Positions 2,153 through 21,611 of a stretch of DNA of 42,116 nt are shown one piece after another. The notes under the pieces are model-generated. The model was not told where the DNA came from. It did not search any database and was given only the letters and a program-made list of their open reading frames with translations. Within the stretch, counting starts at the first letter, position 1. Each line of letters begins with the position of its first letter. The stretch is from the sequence record MN850623.1; one strand, 5' to 3'. The translations under genes and the position numbers were made by a program. Source of the stretch: Escherichia phage sortsyn.

Positions 2153-4405
2153 ATGGAGAACACAATGGCCCGCGACGTATACGCTGATATTGGTATGCCT
2201 TCGACGCCTTTCCTACGTCTGGACCGCTTCGCGGCGCTGGTCAACGGGAAGATCTATGTAGGCGTGAAAGATACCGACCCGCTGAACCCAGCGAACCAGA
2301 CCCAGGTCTTTGTCGAGGACGAGGACGGAACGCTGACGCCAATCCCGCAGCCAGTACGGACCAACGTCTCCGGCTATCCGGTCTGGAACGGTCAAGTAGT
2401 CAAACTGATCACCAAGATCGAATCATCCATGAAGGTGATGGACGCGAACGACGTCCAGCAATTCTATTTCGGGAACCTGTTCAAATATGATCCGGTCCAG
2501 ATGTGGAACCTTCTCACCTCGCCGACTGGCTGGGAGTACGTGGGGACGAATTACGGCGTTTTGAAAGAGTCGATTCAGGGCTGGATCACTCCTTTTCAGT
2601 TCGTCGGGAAAGCGCCATTCACCAGCGTGTCCGCAGCCATCCAAACCATGTTTGACACGGCTCAGGCCCAAAAGCTGGCAGTCTGGGCCATTGGCTGGGA
2701 GGGAACGCTGGACGGCAACGTGACCGCGACGGATATCCTCATCATGGGGGGAACGTGGAAAGGTACGCCGGACTTTTTCATGGACAATTCCACGCTGAAA
2801 GGCGCGACCATCAAAAACGCCCGTATTCGCGTATGGGGCGGCGACGTAAGGATCCGCGATTGCCTGTTTGACGGCAAGCCGACCACGAGCAAGGTCGCAA
2901 GCGTAATGATGCAAGCCCTACCGAAAAACGCGACTGTGGAAGTCACGGAGAGCGAGTTCCGCAATGGCCTTTACGGCATCTTGCAGCAGGGGACCGGGGA
3001 ACTCGTCACGCGTGGCCTGTATCGTAACTTGTCGTTTTACGACATGGGCGGCGACGGGATCGAGCTTAACGTGGTCCAGCGCCACTACGACGACGGATGC
3101 GTGATCGAAAATATCTACCTGGAGAACATCGACTCCACCGGACAGGCTCCGATCAACCCGTCCAACTGGGGGATCGGGATCGGCGTCGCTGGTCAATCTC
3201 CGTATGGTATCGACACGCCGGACGAGAACTTCGCGAAGAACATCACGATCCGCAACGTGACGGGCGTCGGCGTCCGCCAGCTTGTTCACTTCGAAATGGT
3301 CCGCGACTCCGTGATCGAGAACATCAACGGCGACCCGGATCAGAACGTGTCTAACGGCTCCGGCCTGACGCTGGCGACGGTCCTCTGTTATGGCTCGCGC
3401 CGCGTGTCGATCGATGGAGTTCGCGGGGAGCCGATCGTCCAGTCCGGGACCCTGGCCTCCGACGTCCGCGTGGTTATGCTGGAGTGGGGGACTAACGCCG
3501 GAGTGGGCGCTCGTGGTCCTTGCCAGGACATGACCGTGAGGAACGTCTATTCCAAGACCGGGCGCTTTTACGCTGGCGTGGGTACGGAAAAGGCCGGGGC
3601 AACCAACCGTTGCCGATTCAGTAACATCAACGTGGCTAAATTCTCCGTTTTCGGCGTGGCTACCGAACTGGATTTAAACGATATCTCCGGCGATATCTTC
3701 GACGCGATCGGGGATGATTCCAGCGGCGGGACGCCTTCGAATGGTTATATCGCTGGCGGTCGCACCGTGTTACGCATGAATAATGTGAACTTCGGCGCGT
3801 ACCCGGATCAGGGCTGGAGCCGTTGCGCATACAGCCAGATTGATTGCGTTAATTCGAACGTGTTCGCCCGTCCGTACCCTCGTTCGGGGACTAACGGCGG
3901 CGTAGGCGCTGAAATGCAGCCCTCTAACCACACTTACCTGATCCCTACTCCTGACCAGATGGACGGCGTAGGGATCTGGGATGGTAACGCGTTCCCGACC
4001 GGGCGCGAGTTCATGGAGGGCGATCTCCTGGTCCGCAACGATGGCAAGATCTTTGCCGTCGAGACGTCCGGCGCATACCTCCCGGCGGTCGCAGAATTGC
4101 AGATTAAAGCGACGGCAGCGGGCCAGACCTACCTCGCGCAAAATTACGCGATGGCTGGCAACAAGTCGGATCAGGTCTGGTTTTATAAGACCCCACTGAC
4201 GCAGGGGACCCGCATCACGATCCCCGGAGCCGGGGCTGGCGGCGCGGCGCTTAACACGGTGATCACTCGCGCACCGTACAGCACCAACCCAAGCAACCCG
4301 ACCGCAGAGATCAGGATCGACATTGCGGACGCTATCGTGACTGGAACCGTGGCGGGCGTTCAACTGGCGGCAACGAAGCCGATCTCCTTCCGAACTCCGG
4401 TATAA
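2153..4405 (+). CDS. Tailspike protein: P22-type head-binding N-terminal domain plus parallel beta-helix receptor-binding/depolymerase domain
   Basis: N-terminus (VNGKIYVGVKDTDPLNPANQTQVFVEDEDG...YPVWNGQVVKLIT) matches the P22 gp9 head-binding domain pattern as recalled; central region has beta-helix-like repeats (NITIRNVTGVGV, VIENINGDP, MTVRNVYSKTG). Confidence 0.9.
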   Translation: MENTMARDVYADIGMPSTPFLRLDRFAALVNGKIYVGVKDTDPLNPANQTQVFVEDEDGTLTPIPQPVRTNVSGYPVWNGQVVKLITKIESSMKVMDANDVQQFYFGNLFKYDPVQMWNLLTSPTGWEYVGTNYGVLKESIQGWITPFQFVGKAPFTSVSAAIQTMFDTAQAQKLAVWAIGWEGTLDGNVTATDILIMGGTWKGTPDFFMDNSTLKGATIKNARIRVWGGDVRIRDCLFDGKPTTSKVASVMMQALPKNATVEVTESEFRNGLYGILQQGTGELVTRGLYRNLSFYDMGGDGIELNVVQRHYDDGCVIENIYLENIDSTGQAPINPSNWGIGIGVAGQSPYGIDTPDENFAKNITIRNVTGVGVRQLVHFEMVRDSVIENINGDPDQNVSNGSGLTLATVLCYGSRRVSIDGVRGEPIVQSGTLASDVRVVMLEWGTNAGVGARGPCQDMTVRNVYSKTGRFYAGVGTEKAGATNRCRFSNINVAKFSVFGVATELDLNDISGDIFDAIGDDSSGGTPSNGYIAGGRTVLRMNNVNFGAYPDQGWSRCAYSQIDCVNSNVFARPYPRSGTNGGVGAEMQPSNHTYLIPTPDQMDGVGIWDGNAFPTGREFMEGDLLVRNDGKIFAVETSGAYLPAVAELQIKATAAGQTYLAQNYAMAGNKSDQVWFYKTPLTQGTRITIPGAGAGGAALNTVITRAPYSTNPSNPTAEIRIDIADAIVTGTVAGVQLAATKPISFRTPV

Positions 4406-4440
4406 AAAAAAGGGGCCTTAATTGGCCCCTTCTTCTTCTC
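4406..4440. terminator. Bidirectional rho-independent terminator between tailspike (+) and DUF2829 gene (-)
   Basis: A8 run, stem AGGGGCC/GGCCCCT, T-rich tail. Confidence 0.7.
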
Positions 4441-4458
4441 TCGATTCCGCGTTAACAA

Positions 4459-4743
4459 TCAGCGTAAGATCGTCCAGTCATTGGCGAACAGGTCGCCCTG
4501 TGATGGGACCCAACCCGGTTGCATTACGCCTTGCGCATTTTTAAGATCAAGATGCGGGGCGATCGTAAATTCGCCAGTGATCCCGGCCTTTGCATAATCA
4601 CTACCCGGTCGCGGCTCGTTTACGGTATACCCGCCAGCCTTGATCACGAATTGATTAGCGCCATTCCATCCAGCGCGGGCAATTTTATAACCTTCCTTCA
4701 CTGCGATCAGAGCTTCGCTAAAGCTAAGGCCGGACTTAATCAT
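4459..4743 (-). CDS. DUF2829-like small phage protein
   Basis: 94 aa with GWNG...WVPSQGDLFANDW signature recalled for DUF2829; overlaps the upstream HTH gene by 8 nt. Confidence 0.5.
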   Translation of the reverse strand: MIKSGLSFSEALIAVKEGYKIARAGWNGANQFVIKAGGYTVNEPRPGSDYAKAGITGEFTIAPHLDLKNAQGVMQPGWVPSQGDLFANDWTILR

Positions 4744-4954
4744 GATTCACTCCATACTCGATCAGGTCTGCGATCGACACGTCCAGGGCGGCAGCGAGTC
4801 GGCAGAGGTTAGTAATATGTGGCAACTCGTGCCCGTTCTCGTATCGGCTCAACTGGTGGGCGATCATGCCTACGCGTTCCGCCAGATCTTTTTGCTGGAT
4901 GCCTTTCGCCTCTCGGACCTGCTTCACGAGGCAAACGGGCTTTAATGTTGCCAT
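4736..4954 (-). CDS. XRE/Cro-type helix-turn-helix transcriptional regulator
   Basis: HTH pattern QKDLAERVGMIAHQLSRYENG; AAGGAG Shine-Dalgarno 7 nt before the second ATG (4954); ORF track start 4969 is the alternative. Confidence 0.75.
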   Translation of the reverse strand: MATLKPVCLVKQVREAKGIQQKDLAERVGMIAHQLSRYENGHELPHITNLCRLAAALDVSIADLIEYGVNHD

Positions 4955-4986
4955 GATCGGCTCCTTCATTGGTTAACGTCTCCGTG

Positions 4987-5015
4987 ATTATTCATTAAAC
5001 CGTTATCTAAATCAA
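4987..5015 (-). promoter_or_regulatory. Putative sigma70 promoter for the HTH-DUF2829 pair
   Basis: Minus-strand -35 TTGATT, 17-bp spacer, -10 AATAAT; overlaps the 3' end of the HNH gene. Confidence 0.4.
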
Positions 5016-5452
5016 TCTGGGTTAAGCGCTTCACCGTTAACCAGATGCCACTCTTTATGATGCCTCTCGCAGAGCCAGCGGACCTCTAACGGGCGATCGT
5101 AGTCGTCATGGTGTCCCACTACCTTCTCCGCTCCGCAGACCTCACACGGCCCCCTCGTTAGCTCTCCGCGCCTTAACGCGTTATAGACCAGATTGTGGGC
5201 CTTTCGCTTCTTTGGGTGTTTTGTGTGGTAGGAGGATTTTGTGGCGTTCGCCTTCTCCCTACCCGGTCCGGCCTGGTACTCCTTCACCTGTTCGATGATC
5301 CGCTCCTTCCTGACCGGATCGGCGTGATAGTACGCCCGGTAATTGTTGTTCTTGCACTGGCGACAGCGCGAGTCCCTTCCGTCCTTCTTGCTCTTGTTCC
5401 TGTGGAACTCCTCCAGCGGCTTCGATTCGTGACAGATGGCGCATTGTTTCAT
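5012..5452 (-). CDS. HNH endonuclease
   Basis: CxxC...CxxC zinc ligands and HNH core VVGHHDDYDRPLEVRWLCERHHKEWH; very basic; AGG/AGA-rich codon usage unlike neighbours. Confidence 0.7.
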   Translation of the reverse strand: MKQCAICHESKPLEEFHRNKSKKDGRDSRCRQCKNNNYRAYYHADPVRKERIIEQVKEYQAGPGREKANATKSSYHTKHPKKRKAHNLVYNALRRGELTRGPCEVCGAEKVVGHHDDYDRPLEVRWLCERHHKEWHLVNGEALNPD

Positions 5453-5495
5453 CTCGTCGGCTCCTGGGAGGATCGGCCCCGAAGGGCCTCACCCG

Positions 5496-6047
5496 TTAAA
5501 ACGGAATGTCATCATCGAAATCAAGCGGAGGCTCCCCGCCATTAGACGCTCCAGAAGCGCCTCCAGACGACGCAGGACCCGACCCGCTACCCTTGCCCGG
5601 ATTTTGCGAATTAGACGCGCCACGGCCCGGAGAATTGCGAGAATTGCCACCGCCGCCGGAGTGGGTAGGTCCATTCCCCCCAGACTGGCCTCCCTCTTTC
5701 TTCCCGCCGAGCATTTGCATAGTGCCGCCGACGTTCACGACGACCTCAGTCGTGTACTTCTCGACGCCCTGCTGGTCCGTCCACTTGCGCGTCCTAAGCT
5801 GGCCCTCAATGTAAACCTGTGAACCCTTGCGCAGATACTCCCCGGCGACCTCCGCCAGCTTCCCGAACAATACGACGCGATGCCATTCCGTTTGCTCTTT
5901 CATTTCGCCCGTTTGCTTATCGCGCCAGGATTCAGAGGTGGCGATCGTAATGTTCGCCACCGCTCCACCTGACGGCATGTAACGCACTTCGGGATCCTGG
6001 CCCAGATTGCCGACCAGAATCACCTTGTTAACGCCGCGTGATGCCAT
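5496..6047 (-). CDS. ssb: Single-stranded DNA-binding protein
   Basis: OB-fold N-terminus ([42 protein letters not shown]), Gly-rich linker, acidic C-terminal tail DDDIPF. Confidence 0.95.
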
Positions 6048-19480: not shown

Positions 19481-21169
19481 ATGACTGATTATGATGAAGT
19501 AATGCCGACACCAGAGCGCAGCGAGGAGGAGCTGATCGAGATGGTCCGGGGCGAGTTCTCCGGCCCGGTAACGCCTCCACCTGCTGACGACGTGCCAGAG
19601 GCTCCTATGGAGTTCTACGAGGAACAGGCCAGCCTGTACGCGGCGAGAGAAGCAGAATCCGCCCAGGATGCCGGGGCGTTCTTCGACTTCGACGAGCACG
19701 AGGCCGCAGAGTGGACGGCAACCGTCCGCAACGACAAGCCGACGATCGTCAAGACGTCCGACCTCACCGACGAGGAGAAGGACGAAGCACGTCGCCAGGA
19801 ACTCCTCGCGAAGCAGCGCGAGAAGCAGCGCAAGAAGATCGACGAGGCGCTGGCGGTCGAGGCAATGGACGACCCGCTGATCGCCAGCCTGAACAAGTCG
19901 AACGAGATCAAGCCCGTTAACTATGTGATCCAGTCGCTGATCCCGGAGCGCTCCGTGGGCTTCCTGGTCGGCGAGTCCGGCGCAAAGAAAACGTTCGCAG
20001 CGTTACAAATGGCGATTTGTGTCGCCACCGGGATCGACTTCGGCGGCTTGCCAGTCCGACAGGGATCCGTGATGTACTTCGCGCCGGAGGATGCGAGCGG
20101 CGTCCGTGAACGTTACGCGGGATGGAAGTACACGCAGAACAAGAACGAGCCGTTACCCAACTTTTGGGTATTGTCCCAGCAGGTCCCACTACACCGCGAG
20201 AGCGAACTCCAGACGTTCGCGGCAACCATCAAGGCGTCCCCGTTCTTCGGCCTGAACCCGCTTTCCCTGATCGTGATCGATACCTACAGCGCCAACAGCG
20301 CGGGCCAGAAAGTGGGCGAGCGCATGATCCCAGGCAAGGGCGACGAGCCGGACCGCTGGGAGGGCGGGACCGACTTCAACGAGAACGACAACAACGTGGC
20401 GGCGATCCTGATGCGTAACGCGGCGTTACTGGCTGAATGGCTTAACTGTGCCGTGATGATCATCCACCACACCGGGAAGGACACCGAGCGAGGCGCTCGT
20501 GGCGCGTCAACCCTCCGCGCTAACGCCGGATTCGAGATCATGGTGAAGAAGTGCAGGGACAAGGAGCTTTTTGTGATTGAGCACACGAAGGCCAAAGGCT
20601 GTGCGCTTCTCCCGGCGCGAGCCATGCGCACGAAGTCCGCGAAGTTACCGCCTGACCTGGTGAAGATGAAGCGCGAGGCGCTGGCGAGGATGCAGCCTGT
20701 ACGCCCGGAGGCGAAGGCCAACCCGGCGGCGTGGGAGATCGGCGACAACCTGGGGACGCTGGTCGTCATTAACGCGCTGGAGGCAGTGCCAGCCGAGAAG
20801 GACGAGGGCGAGAAGCCGGAGGACACGCGCAAGCGCAGCAAGAAGGAGGAACAGGCGATCCGACTGCTGGCCTACGTCGTGGAATACTCGCAGCAGCGCA
20901 AGGACAAGGGCTACCGCTTGCCGAAGCTGACCAAAGGCATGTTATCCGATCACTTCCGCAACTTCGCAGAGCCGCCGATTAAGCGGACGGACTTTTTCCA
21001 CGCCTTCGAACATGCGACCAAAAAAATGATGATCATCAAAATGGCAGGGGACGAAACGCTGACCGCCTCAACCGAAGCGGCTCCGCTCCTGGGTGGAATC
21101 CGGGATCAGAAGCCACTCCCGACCGACTGGAAACCGACCGAAGGATCCGACGATCTGAGTGACTTTTAA
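19481..21169 (+). CDS. RepA-like AAA_25/RecA-fold ATPase, putative replication initiator-helicase
   Basis: GFLVGESGAKKTFAALQMA (deviant Walker A), Walker B LIVIDTYS, IIHHTGKD motif typical of RepA/DnaB-like ATPases; acidic N-terminal region. Confidence 0.65.
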   Translation: MTDYDEVMPTPERSEEELIEMVRGEFSGPVTPPPADDVPEAPMEFYEEQASLYAAREAESAQDAGAFFDFDEHEAAEWTATVRNDKPTIVKTSDLTDEEKDEARRQELLAKQREKQRKKIDEALAVEAMDDPLIASLNKSNEIKPVNYVIQSLIPERSVGFLVGESGAKKTFAALQMAICVATGIDFGGLPVRQGSVMYFAPEDASGVRERYAGWKYTQNKNEPLPNFWVLSQQVPLHRESELQTFAATIKASPFFGLNPLSLIVIDTYSANSAGQKVGERMIPGKGDEPDRWEGGTDFNENDNNVAAILMRNAALLAEWLNCAVMIIHHTGKDTERGARGASTLRANAGFEIMVKKCRDKELFVIEHTKAKGCALLPARAMRTKSAKLPPDLVKMKREALARMQPVRPEAKANPAAWEIGDNLGTLVVINALEAVPAEKDEGEKPEDTRKRSKKEEQAIRLLAYVVEYSQQRKDKGYRLPKLTKGMLSDHFRNFAEPPIKRTDFFHAFEHATKKMMIIKMAGDETLTASTEAAPLLGGIRDQKPLPTDWKPTEGSDDLSDF

Positions 21170-21422
21170 CGGGGCGTTGTGTTCCGTTAACGTTATCCCC
21201 TCTCTTATAGAGAGAGGGATAAACGCGTAACGTTAACAACATATGCCGGAAAGTCTAAACAACGTTAACTATGAACTGAAAATTAACATAACAGATTCAT
21301 GAAGTTACAAGAGAAGTGTTAACAGGTTTATGGCAAATCGTTAATGCGGAAATCAGGGGGTAAAAATCGGGGGCCACCCCCGAAAAATCCCCGCTTAAAT
21401 AATCATTGATAAGTGATGCGAA
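21170..21422. other. Candidate replication origin: AT-rich non-coding region with GTTAAC-containing iterons and a ~28-bp imperfect palindrome
   Basis: 253-bp gap after the RepA-like gene; GTTAAC at 21186, 21232, 21254, 21318; AACGTTAAC repeated; palindrome TATCCCCTCTCTTATAGAGAGAGGGATA at 21195-21222; GC hairpin GGGGGCCACCCCC. Confidence 0.45.
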
Positions 21423-21611
21423 ATGAGCGACGATAACAACGTGATTTTATTCCCCCGACGGACAGCAGTCGGACAGGTTGAACCAGCACGATCGAACCAC
21501 TGGATCGAACGGTTCGGATTGTGGAATTACTTCCTGATGGTGGCGACAACCATCGGCGCGATCGTGGTCGGACTGGCGGCGATCGTGTTTAACATGCTGG
21601 GCCTGATGTGA
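21423..21611 (+). CDS. Small membrane protein
   Basis: 62 aa with C-terminal hydrophobic helix. Confidence 0.4.
   Translation: MSDDNNVILFPRRTAVGQVEPARSNHWIERFGLWNYFLMVATTIGAIVVGLAAIVFNMLGLM

What the first reader, a model, noticed from the sequence alone, without database searches (positions are those of the whole stretch)
4459..4969. XRE regulator and DUF2829 gene pair with their own promoter at the end of the early block
An XRE-family HTH gene overlaps a DUF2829-like gene by 8 nt and is preceded by a well-spaced promoter (TTGATT, 17 bp, AATAAT) inside the 3' end of the HNH gene. A regulator paired with a small unknown effector is a common layout for accessory modules such as exclusion or anti-defence.
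Basis: partly seen in the sequence, partly recalled or inferred. Interest (0 to 1): 0.4.

Follow-up and report, generated by a model that had tools for sequence, protein, structure and literature searches.

The report
Tad2 immune-signal sponge in a swap slot
The "unknown" small gene belongs to Tad2, a known family of phage proteins that soak up bacterial alarm molecules, and it sits in a slot behind a conserved regulator gene where related phages carry other families of such sponges, so it is a useful but not fundamentally new anti-defence module.

Summary
On the minus strand, an XRE helix-turn-helix gene (4736..4954, or 4969) overlaps a DUF2829 gene (4459..4743) by 8 nt. A TTGATT-17-AATAAT promoter lies upstream (5015..4987) and a strong terminator downstream (4404..4437). 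DUF2829 is now Pfam "Tad2-like" (E 2e-22). The protein also matches solved Tad2 sponges in sequence and predicted fold, and it keeps the core ADPR-signal pocket residues (W26, N27, W78, D84).

The "regulator plus dedicated effector" reading is only partly right. The XRE gene and its promoter are conserved in 20 related podovirus genomes or contigs, but the gene behind it varies:
- Tad2: 2
- Sequestin: 5
- Acb4-Sequestin fusion: 2
- Acb2-like: 3
- RyR-domain: 3
- nothing: 5

Every filled slot holds a family reported to sequester immune signals. Conversely, only 1 of 80 viral Tad2 loci has an HTH gene directly upstream, and that is this phage type itself.

Best reading: a one-gene anti-signalling hotspot at the end of the replication/recombination operon, here filled with an anti-Thoeris-type sponge. 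What the XRE protein regulates is untested. This is a new member of a known kind, of moderate interest.

The parts
4987..5015 (-). Sigma-70-type promoter: -35 TTGATT (5015..5010, overlapping the endonuclease stop codon 5014..5012), 17-nt spacer, -10 AATAAT (4992..4987)
   Evidence: Consensus scan. The hexamers, a 17-nt spacer (18 nt in KMB41) and the -10 are kept in 8 aligned relatives, in Kc237 and in L121, where the promoter follows SSB directly.
4972..4992 (-). Invariant 21-nt block AATAATCACGGAGACGTTAAC (-10 hexamer plus the start-site region and 5' UTR); candidate operator or start-site element
   Evidence: Longest invariant run in alignment A1. Unique in the window even with 3 mismatches allowed. 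An exact-match scan finds it only in this phage group. Its function is inferred, not shown.
4736..4954 (-). XRE-family helix-turn-helix gene, 72 aa (alternative upstream in-frame ATG at 4969 gives 77 aa); Shine-Dalgarno AAGGAG at 4966..4961
   Evidence: HTH_3 E 5.8e-14. PDB sequence hits are generic small XRE proteins (C.BclI, C.AhdI, SinR, DdrOC), none stronger than E 7e-5. Orthologues are 74-100% identical in Murrayvirus and Sortsnevirus and 44-71% in Kc237, Kc166B and C130_2.
4459..4743 (-). Tad2-like (DUF2829) immune-signal sponge gene, 94 aa; its ATG overlaps the XRE stop by 8 nt; Shine-Dalgarno GGAG at 4753..4750
   Evidence: PF11195 E 2.3e-22. phmmer to ModTad2 9eib at 1.5e-10, to SPO1 Tad2 8sme at 8e-10 and to HgmTad2 8kbi. 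AF2 model pLDDT 95.3. All 24 Foldseek PDB hits with E<=1e-3 are Tad2 structures, TM up to 0.80. W26, N27, W78, S81 and D84 are invariant in 41 homologues. GC is 52% against 59% for the window.
4438..4458 (-). Conserved spacer TTGTTAACGCGGAATCGAGAG between the cargo stop codon and the terminator; downstream boundary of the variable slot
   Evidence: A related sequence (ATTGTTAAnnnGGAATCGAGAGA) follows each different cargo, or the XRE stop in KMB41, in 7 of the 8 aligned phages. It is deleted in ST231.
4404..4437 (.). Bidirectional intrinsic terminator shared with the convergent tailspike gene. The minus strand reads GGGGCCAATTAAGGCCCC followed by 8 T.
   Evidence: Sequence, terminator scan, inverted repeat I2. 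Conserved in all 8 aligned relatives.
5012..5452 (-). Upstream endonuclease gene (HNH-like, 146 aa); context only. It is the last gene of the helicase, VRR-NUC, exonuclease, Erf, SSB, endonuclease operon before the XRE promoter.
   Evidence: phrog_2340 endonuclease E 2.9e-43, with weaker HNH and endonuclease VII PHROGs. No Pfam hit above cutoff. Gene order.

Best explanation
The window is an essentially complete Murrayvirus podophage genome, 96% identical to IME_EC2 across the locus. Its length and GC content match the published entry for Escherichia phage sortsyn.

At the end of its replication/recombination operon it carries a small transcription unit: a host-type promoter, a conserved 72-aa XRE protein, one translationally coupled cargo gene and a strong terminator. 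The cargo position is a one-gene anti-signalling hotspot. Related phages keep the promoter, the XRE gene and the terminator, but carry Tad2, Sequestin, Acb4-Sequestin, an Acb2-like protein, a RyR-domain protein or nothing.

In this phage the cargo is a Tad2-family sponge. By homology (inferred), it assembles into a homotetramer whose inter-subunit pockets, lined by W26/N27 and W78/S81/D84, bind and sequester a TIR-made ADP-ribose-derived alarm molecule. The likeliest ligands are 3'cADPR and/or His-ADPR of Thoeris. Sequestration would stop the host effector from firing and let the infection proceed.

Expression from a sigma-70 promoter, plus read-through from the upstream operon, would supply the sponge early (inferred). 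The XRE protein is a conserved core gene rather than a partner specific to Tad2. Its most likely role is to regulate, probably repress, its own promoter and thereby set the dose or timing of whatever cargo sits behind it. This last step is the least supported.
For: **Shown here: the cargo is a Tad2 member**
- The Pfam Tad2-like match is far above the cutoff.
- It is similar in sequence to four solved Tad2 proteins.
- A confident AF2 model finds only Tad2 folds.
- The four main ligand-contact residues of SPO1 Tad2 (W25, N26, W73, D79) and S76 align to W26, N27, W78, D84 and S81. All five are invariant across 41 homologues.

**Shown here: the slot**
- Cargo census across 20 genomes or contigs.
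- All 15 filled slots hold PF11195, PF21825, PF13876+PF21825, PF24729 or PF02026.
- The slot has conserved flanks.
- Tad2 GC content is 7 points below the genome average.

**Literature on the cargo families**
- PF21825 is Sequestin, a 3'cADPR sponge, and PF13876 is Acb4 (10.1101/2025.07.12.664507; 10.1101/2024.12.30.630793).
- RyR Tad is a gcADPR sponge found in an anti-signalling hotspot next to SSB in N4-like phages (10.64898/2026.06.04.730250). The sortkaff cargo is 68.6% identical to a protein of Pectobacterium phage CB3. That CB3 is closely related to CB1, the RyR Tad source phage, is from my own knowledge.
- Tad2 members inhibit types I, II and IV Thoeris, CBASS or Pycsar, depending on the clade.

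**Promoter and operon**
- Promoter conservation.
- No terminator-like site lies between the endonuclease gene and XRE.
Against: - No experiment exists on this protein or its clade. The closest experimentally tested Tad2 (Tad2_68, which inhibits type I and II Thoeris) is only 41% identical.
- The pocket-periphery residues differ from SPO1 (T65/D67/H71/T78 become N69/Q71/Q75/G83) and are conserved within this clade. The exact ligand is therefore open.
- Tetramer formation cannot be tested with these tools.
- No convincing dyad-symmetric operator was found at the promoter.
- XRE shows no sequence similarity to solved Aca proteins at E<=0.01.
- Five relatives keep XRE with an empty slot, so XRE must have a function that does not need a cargo.
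- Timing of expression is inferred from gene order only.
Confidence: 0.75

Rival explanations
1. Dedicated acr-aca-like operon. The XRE protein exists specifically to control the anti-defence cargo. It would act as an autorepressor that shuts a strong early promoter after an initial burst of sponge, as Aca proteins do for anti-CRISPR genes.
For: - XRE and cargo share one promoter and one terminator and are translationally coupled.
- All 15 filled slots behind XRE orthologues hold anti-signalling genes.
- The 21-nt block spanning the -10 hexamer and the start site is invariant, where an autorepressor operator would sit.
- The best PDB relatives include controller (C) proteins that autoregulate from sites at their own promoters.
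Against: - Five relatives keep XRE and its promoter with no cargo.
- The gene order is regulator first, whereas aca genes usually follow acr (own knowledge).
- No inverted-repeat operator was identified.
- No sequence match to Aca structures.
- Tad2 elsewhere is not associated with HTH genes (1 of 80).
Confidence: 0.3
2. The Tad2 homologue targets a non-Thoeris signal, such as CBASS cyclic dinucleotides or c-di-GMP as HgmTad2 does, or Pycsar cUMP/cCMP as MoTad2 does. This would be instead of, or as well as, ADPR-derived signals.
For: Tad2 members bind cGG and cGAMP in a second pocket, or cUMP/cCMP. The best structural hits include SptTad2-cGG and ModTad2.
Against: - The cyclic-dinucleotide pocket depends on a long beta2-beta5 insertion (HgmTad2 residues 32-72). 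Here the equivalent stretch is about 29 residues.
- The mutationally validated residues R31, F70 and N85 align to K35/A36, I61 and P76.
- The ADPR pocket core is intact.
Confidence: 0.15
3. Anti-CRISPR module. DUF2829 was first reported as AcrIIA7, a Cas9 inhibitor, with the HTH gene acting as its Aca.
For: PDB entries 8kbi and 9kzr for this family are named AcrIIA7 or 'Inhibitor of Type II CRISPR-Cas system'.
Against: The Cas9 inhibition could not be reproduced in vitro or in vivo (10.1101/2023.11.15.567273). The family is reinterpreted as sponges. The alternative cargos in the same slot are all signal sponges. Type II CRISPR-Cas is not a typical E. coli system (own knowledge).
Confidence: 0.03
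4. Type II toxin-antitoxin or exclusion pair: an XRE antitoxin with a small toxin encoded downstream.
For: A small overlapping two-gene operon with an XRE protein first. There is a weak MqsA_antitoxin match (E 5e-4, below cutoff).
Against: The downstream protein is a confident Tad2 member, not a toxin family. The partner is freely exchanged or absent in relatives. The phage annotation lists no integrase, so a lysogenic state in which exclusion would matter is unlikely.
Confidence: 0.02

Closest known systems
Tad2 (Thoeris anti-defence 2; Pfam PF11195, formerly DUF2829): SPO1 Tad2, ModTad2, HgmTad2/AcrIIA7, SptTad2
   Same: - Same Pfam family and same predicted fold (helix alpha1 plus an antiparallel sheet).
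- Same length class (about 90 aa).
- Conserved GWNG and W-x-P-S-x-x-D motifs, which form the ADPR-signal pocket.
- Encoded by a phage as a small accessory gene.
   Different: - Only 30-35% identical to any solved member and 41% to the closest tested one.
- It belongs to an enterobacterial clade with its own conserved pocket-edge residues (N69, Q71, Q75, G83). Where these align to SPO1 (T65, D67, H71, T78), the residues differ.
- It lacks the long insertion and the residues of the HgmTad2 cyclic-dinucleotide pocket.
- Ligand and oligomeric state are untested.
Anti-signalling hotspot of N4-like phages (Fedorova et al. 2026 preprint, 10.64898/2026.06.04.730250)
   Same: A variable locus next to SSB and recombination genes. 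In related phages it holds different known signal inhibitors (Tad2, Acb4, Sequestin, RyR Tad).
   Different: - Here the hotspot is a single-gene slot with sharp boundaries (the XRE stop codon on one side, a conserved 21-nt spacer plus terminator on the other).
- It occurs in an unrelated P22-like podovirus group (Murrayvirus, Sortsnevirus and relatives).
- It is always preceded by an XRE gene with its own promoter.
- No Bes1/RuvC-like genes are present.
acr-aca operons (anti-CRISPR gene plus HTH autorepressor)
   Same: An anti-defence gene and a small HTH gene form one short operon driven by a host-type promoter. The HTH gene is conserved while the anti-defence gene varies, so it could serve as a marker gene for finding new inhibitors.
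   Different: The regulator comes first rather than last. There is no sequence relationship to known Aca proteins and no operator has been identified. The regulator persists when the slot is empty.
Controller (C) proteins of restriction-modification systems and small phage Cro-like XRE proteins
   Same: About 70-aa single-domain XRE HTH. The best PDB sequence matches include C.BclI and C.AhdI. The gene sits directly behind its own promoter.
   Different: The matches are weak (E 3e-4 to 3e-3). No C-box-like dyad was found. The genomic context is not a restriction-modification system.

Membership tests
Tad2 / PF11195 sponge family | Profile match above the curated threshold | tested here: met
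   79.7 bits against a cutoff of 25, E 2.3e-22, covering profile positions 2-73 of 73. PHROGs 1048 and 872 at E 1e-25 and 1e-23.
Tad2 / PF11195 sponge family | [quoted passage not shown] | tested here: met
   AF2 pLDDT 95.3, pTM 0.83. The 24 Foldseek PDB hits with E<=1e-3 are all Tad2 structures; the next hit has E 1.6.
Tad2 / PF11195 sponge family | Core ligand-pocket residues (SPO1 W25, N26, W73, D79; HgmTad2 W21/N22 and S90/D93) | tested here: met
   W26, N27, W78, S81 and D84 align to them and are invariant in 41 homologues.
Tad2 / PF11195 sponge family | Homotetramer with pockets at subunit interfaces | not testable with these tools
   Only monomer prediction is available.
Tad2 / PF11195 sponge family | Binds and releases the intact signal, and relieves Thoeris (or another signalling defence) in vivo | not testable with these tools
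   Needs biochemistry and infection assays. No tested homologue is above 41% identity.
SPO1-type Tad2 subtype (3'cADPR pocket as in 8smf) | Adenine-side and water-coordinating residues T65, D67, H71, T78 | tested here: not met
   They align to N69, Q71, Q75 and G83, which are conserved within this clade. This is a subtype feature, not a family-defining one.
HgmTad2-type dual sponge (extra cyclic-dinucleotide pocket) | Long beta2-beta5 insertion (about 41 aa) with R31, S47, F70 and N85 | tested here: not met
   The insertion is about 29 aa. R31, F70 and N85 align to K35/A36, I61 and P76.
Anti-defence / anti-signalling hotspot | Same position between conserved flanks holds different anti-defence genes in related phages | tested here: met
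   Five cargo types plus empty slots across 20 genomes or contigs. Flanks are conserved.
acr-aca-like regulator/anti-defence operon | HTH protein binds an operator in the operon promoter and represses it | tested here: inconclusive
   An invariant 21-nt block spans the -10 hexamer and the start site, but no dyad was found. Binding itself cannot be tested here.
acr-aca-like regulator/anti-defence operon | Sequence membership in a described Aca family | tested here: not met
   The PDB sequence search at E<=0.01 returns only generic XRE proteins. That Aca1 and Aca2 structures are in the PDB is from my own knowledge.
Type II toxin-antitoxin pair | Conserved antitoxin-toxin pairing with a toxin-family partner | tested here: not met
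   The partner is Tad2 and is exchangeable or absent in relatives.

The most novel reading that the evidence does not exclude
The conserved XRE protein is a dedicated, Aca-like gatekeeper of a single-gene 'sponge slot'. The invariant 21-nt block at its promoter would be its operator. XRE would set a burst-then-shut-off dose for whichever immune-signal sponge is plugged in behind it. That would be the first regulator-sponge operon, and XRE orthologues would become a marker gene for finding new signal inhibitors. A second open point: this enterobacterial Tad2 clade has its own conserved pocket-edge residues (N69, Q71, Q75, G83) and may bind a TIR product not yet assigned to Tad2.
Probability: 0.25. 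Interest if true: 0.55.

Novelty: new member of a known kind. Interest (0 to 1): 0.4.

Why it matters
It turns a "hypothetical protein next to a regulator" into a concrete, testable anti-Thoeris-type sponge in a coliphage that plates on E. coli K-12.

It also shows that one small, sharply bounded position in a group of otherwise collinear podoviruses has been filled by at least five different sponge families. These near-isogenic phages could be used to compare sponge specificities in one genetic background, and to ask how sponge dose is controlled.

The slot could also serve as bait. Anything found behind an XRE orthologue that is not yet a known inhibitor becomes a candidate. Examples are the 55-aa N-terminal extension in Kc237 and the DUF4406 gene beside XRE in C130_2.

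For phage therapy, the presence or absence of such a cargo predicts sensitivity to signalling defences.

Tried and rejected
1. **Operator search.** Inverted and direct repeat scans of 4380-5100 gave one perfect 9-nt inverted pair, TGGTTAACG/CGTTAACCA (4970-4978 and 5035-5043), bracketing the promoter. The upstream arm lies in coding sequence and is lost in KMB41, Sortsne and sortkaff. The downstream arm is GATAAC in Kc237 and CATTAAC in L121. It was not accepted as an operator.
2. **CGTTAAC as a genome-wide XRE site.** The motif is enriched (17 sites against 3.3 expected) and clustered at 21185-21323. In Sortsne it is enriched but not clustered at the equivalent place. The genome also has strongly skewed palindrome usage in general. 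It is left unexplained.
3. **Toxin-antitoxin and AcrIIA7/anti-CRISPR readings.** Rejected; see the rival explanations.
4. **Known RNA element in the region.** Rfam gave only a sub-threshold sraL hit on the terminator (19.4 bits against 39).
5. **Single-sequence searches for XRE relatives.** The search for related loci and the search for homologous proteins reached only close relatives (4 loci; 8 proteins). The census is therefore limited to this phage group.
6. **Looking for this exact Tad2 among the 84 sponges tested by Hadary et al.** It is absent, and the nearest is 41% identical.
7. **First neighbour-calling heuristic (longest ORF within 300 nt).** It skipped XRE in the positive control. 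It was replaced by a greedy non-overlapping ORF set.

Full report
**Observation**

Reading 3800-5600 and listing ORFs shows two overlapping minus-strand genes. One is an XRE-type gene at 4736..4969 and the other a 94-codon gene at 4459..4743. They share 8 nt (ATGATTAA). They are the last genes of a minus-strand block (helicase, VRR-NUC, exonuclease, Erf, SSB, endonuclease, XRE, cargo). That block converges on the plus-strand tailspike gene (2153..4405) at a GC-rich hairpin (4404..4437), which on the minus strand is followed by eight T.

Only its -35 hexamer touches the endonuclease stop codon. An AAGGAG six bases before a second in-frame ATG (4954), and the 219-nt annotation of the orthologues, make a 72-aa XRE product more likely than the 77-aa one. 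As a bare consensus match the promoter is unremarkable (3 found against 1.1 expected).

**Identity of the small gene**

- Pfam now calls DUF2829 "Tad2-like", and the protein scores 79.7 bits (E 2.3e-22).
- phmmer against PDB sequences finds ModTad2, SPO1 Tad2, HgmTad2/AcrIIA7 and SptTad2 at E about 1e-10 to 1e-9.
- An AF2 model built on 41 homologues is confident (pLDDT 95.3).
- All 24 significant Foldseek PDB hits for that model are Tad2 structures (TM up to 0.80).

The residues that carry most ligand contacts in SPO1 Tad2 are W25, N26, W73 and D79, plus S76 (Yirmiya et al. preprint). They align to W26, N27, W78, D84 and S81, which are invariant across the homologues.

The residues at the adenine edge of the pocket differ: T65, D67, H71 and T78 become N69, Q71, Q75 and G83. 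These replacements are themselves conserved within this enterobacterial clade.

The second, cyclic-dinucleotide pocket of HgmTad2 depends on a long insertion and on R31, F70 and N85. Neither the insertion nor those residues is present here.

Tad2 members have been shown to sequester 3'cADPR, His-ADPR, N7-cADPR, cGG/cGAMP or cUMP/cCMP, depending on the clade. The closest experimentally tested protein (Tad2_68, active against type I and II Thoeris) is 41% identical and shares the KNAQG...GD signature. Family membership is therefore secure. A Thoeris-type ADPR ligand is the best inference, and the exact ligand is open.

**Is XRE its partner?**

The window is 96% identical to Enterobacteria phage IME_EC2 (Murrayvirus) across the locus. 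Its length (42,116 bp) and GC content (59%) match the table entry for Escherichia phage sortsyn in Olsen et al. 2020. That match is an inference.

Megablast hits to other relatives stop near the XRE stop codon. Annotated regions and ORF lists show the following gene behind XRE.

| Cargo behind XRE | Genomes or contigs |
|---|---|
| Tad2 | window, IME_EC2 |
| Nothing | ST231, KMB41, Kc166B, C130_2, L121 |
| Sequestin (PF21825) | sortregn, Lumpael, L118, L122, and Kc237 with a 55-aa N-terminal extension |
| Acb4-Sequestin fusion | L010, L120 |
| Acb2/Tad1-hairpin protein | Sortsne, IME279, L023 |
| RyR-domain protein | sortkaff, L018, L024 |

The literature shows that each of these families contains immune-signal sponges:

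- Sequestin and the frequent Tad2/Acb4/Sequestin fusions: Tal et al. 2025.
- Acb4: Chang et al. 2024.
- RyR Tad, found in an "anti-signalling hotspot" next to SSB in N4-like phages: Fedorova et al. 2026.

The sortkaff RyR protein is 68.6% identical to a protein of Pectobacterium phage CB3. That CB3 is a close relative of the phage in which RyR Tad was defined is from my own knowledge.

In the reverse direction, I took 80 IMG/VR loci encoding Tad2 relatives and called immediate neighbours with a greedy ORF set. The upstream neighbour carries HTH_3 in one case, IME_EC2 itself, and the downstream neighbour in none. By contrast, 13 of the 160 neighbours are other sponge families. Four look-ups of close Tad2 homologues place them after the major capsid gene of siphovirus-like contigs, with no regulator nearby.

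The XRE-Tad2 pairing is therefore a property of this slot, not of the Tad2 family.

**The slot and its control region**

- In the alignment of eight phages, the upstream boundary is the XRE stop codon. The cargo ATG overlaps it in the Tad2 and Sequestin versions, and the ATG is mutated to ACG where the slot is empty.
- The downstream boundary is a conserved spacer of about 21 nt plus the terminator.
- A -35-like hexamer, a 17-nt spacer (18 nt, and only a 3-of-6 hexamer, in KMB41) and AATAAT are kept in all eight.
- The longest invariant run of the whole alignment is AATAATCACGGAGACGTTAAC (4992..4972).
- The 5' UTR is 81% invariant, against 24% at XRE third codon positions.
- The same promoter precedes XRE in Kc237. 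It also does so in L121, where the endonuclease gene is missing and SSB is the upstream gene. In Kc166B a hairpin follows SSB before XRE.
- The promoter therefore belongs to XRE and is under selection.
- Tad2 has a lower GC content than the genome (52% against 59%), as expected for an acquired accessory gene.

**Mechanism: shown and inferred**

- **Shown.** The anatomy of the unit, the family membership of the cargo, conservation of the pocket core, the exchangeability of the cargo, and conservation of XRE and its promoter.
- **Inferred from the family.** Tetramer formation, sequestration of a TIR-derived ADPR signal, and relief of Thoeris-type abortive infection.
- **Inferred from position.** Early expression by host RNA polymerase, plus read-through from the upstream operon (no terminator-like site between the endonuclease gene and XRE).
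- **Least supported.** That XRE represses its own promoter and so doses the cargo. I found no convincing dyad operator. XRE resembles only generic small XRE proteins, including restriction-modification controller proteins. XRE also persists where the slot is empty.

**Comparison and novelty**

The gene is a new, untested member of the known Tad2 family; the IME_EC2 orthologue is already labelled Tad2-like in UniRef. The slot is a new instance of a recently described phenomenon, the anti-signalling hotspot. It differs in being a single-gene position with sharp boundaries, in an unrelated P22-like podovirus group, and in always being headed by an XRE gene. A full-text search found no paper linking Murrayvirus or Sortsnevirus to sponges.

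Verdict: the finding is real and correctly flagged as anti-defence. It is ordinary at the level of the protein family. It is moderately interesting as a natural sponge-swap locus and as a possible regulator-sponge operon.

Noticed in passing
window 21185-21323 (and 15 distinct GTTAAC-core sites genome-wide, e.g. 2047, 4450, 4972, 5035, 6027, 9171, 9192): CGTTAAC gives 17 strand-specific matches, against 3.3 +/- 2.0 in shuffles. Four GTTAAC sites cluster in a 250-nt intergenic region between ORF 19481..21169 and a block of small genes starting at 21423. That region also contains a long hairpin (CCCCTCTCTTATAGAGAGAGGG). Three sites flank the XRE-Tad2 unit. GTTAAC is also enriched in Sortsne (23 sites), but not clustered at the equivalent place. 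It could be a regulator or methyltransferase site, or origin iterons.
   Followed up: partly
whole window: Six-base palindrome usage is strongly skewed. At least ten palindromes (CCTAGG, CCGCGG, CCCGGG, CCATGG, CACGTG, ATGCAT, AGTACT, ACTAGT, ACCGGT, AAGCTT) have zero copies, while CGATCG (61) and GGATCC (41) are abundant. This is consistent with restriction avoidance combined with the DNA methyltransferase genes annotated in IME_EC2.
   Followed up: no
L019:2706-3065 (Kosakonia phage Kc237): The slot cargo is 119 aa. A Sequestin domain occupies residues 56-113, preceded by about 55 residues with no Pfam match. By analogy with the known sponge-sponge fusions, this could be an undescribed sponge or accessory domain.
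   Followed up: no
L021:2118-2504 (Escherichia phage C130_2): In this more distant relative the slot behind XRE is empty. A DUF4406 gene (nucleoside 2-deoxyribosyltransferase-like, E 4.6e-21) is inserted between the endonuclease gene and XRE and overlaps the XRE start by 4 nt. It is a candidate signal-modifying or signal-degrading accessory gene. XRE itself is not annotated in the RefSeq record.
   Followed up: no
L029 (ENA scaffold, siphovirus-like), L035/L036: Close Tad2 homologues sit directly after the major capsid gene. L029 has two Tad2 paralogues and an Acb2-like gene within 4 kb. In L036 an IS200-type Y1 transposase gene lies beside a Sequestin-Tad2 fusion gene. So sponge genes cluster with one another in other phage types too.
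   Followed up: partly
window 2153-4405 (+): The tailspike has a P22-type head-binding domain (E 5e-34). Relatives annotate it as a colanic-acid-degrading (WcaM-like) enzyme. Its C-terminal part differs among relatives, so the variable sponge slot lies next to a second variable, host-range-determining region.
   Followed up: no
window 4955-4969: Two in-frame ATGs (4969 and 4954), each preceded by a GGAG, are invariant in all eight aligned phages. Two XRE isoforms differing by 5 residues are possible. RefSeq and GenBank records disagree on which start to annotate.
   Followed up: partly
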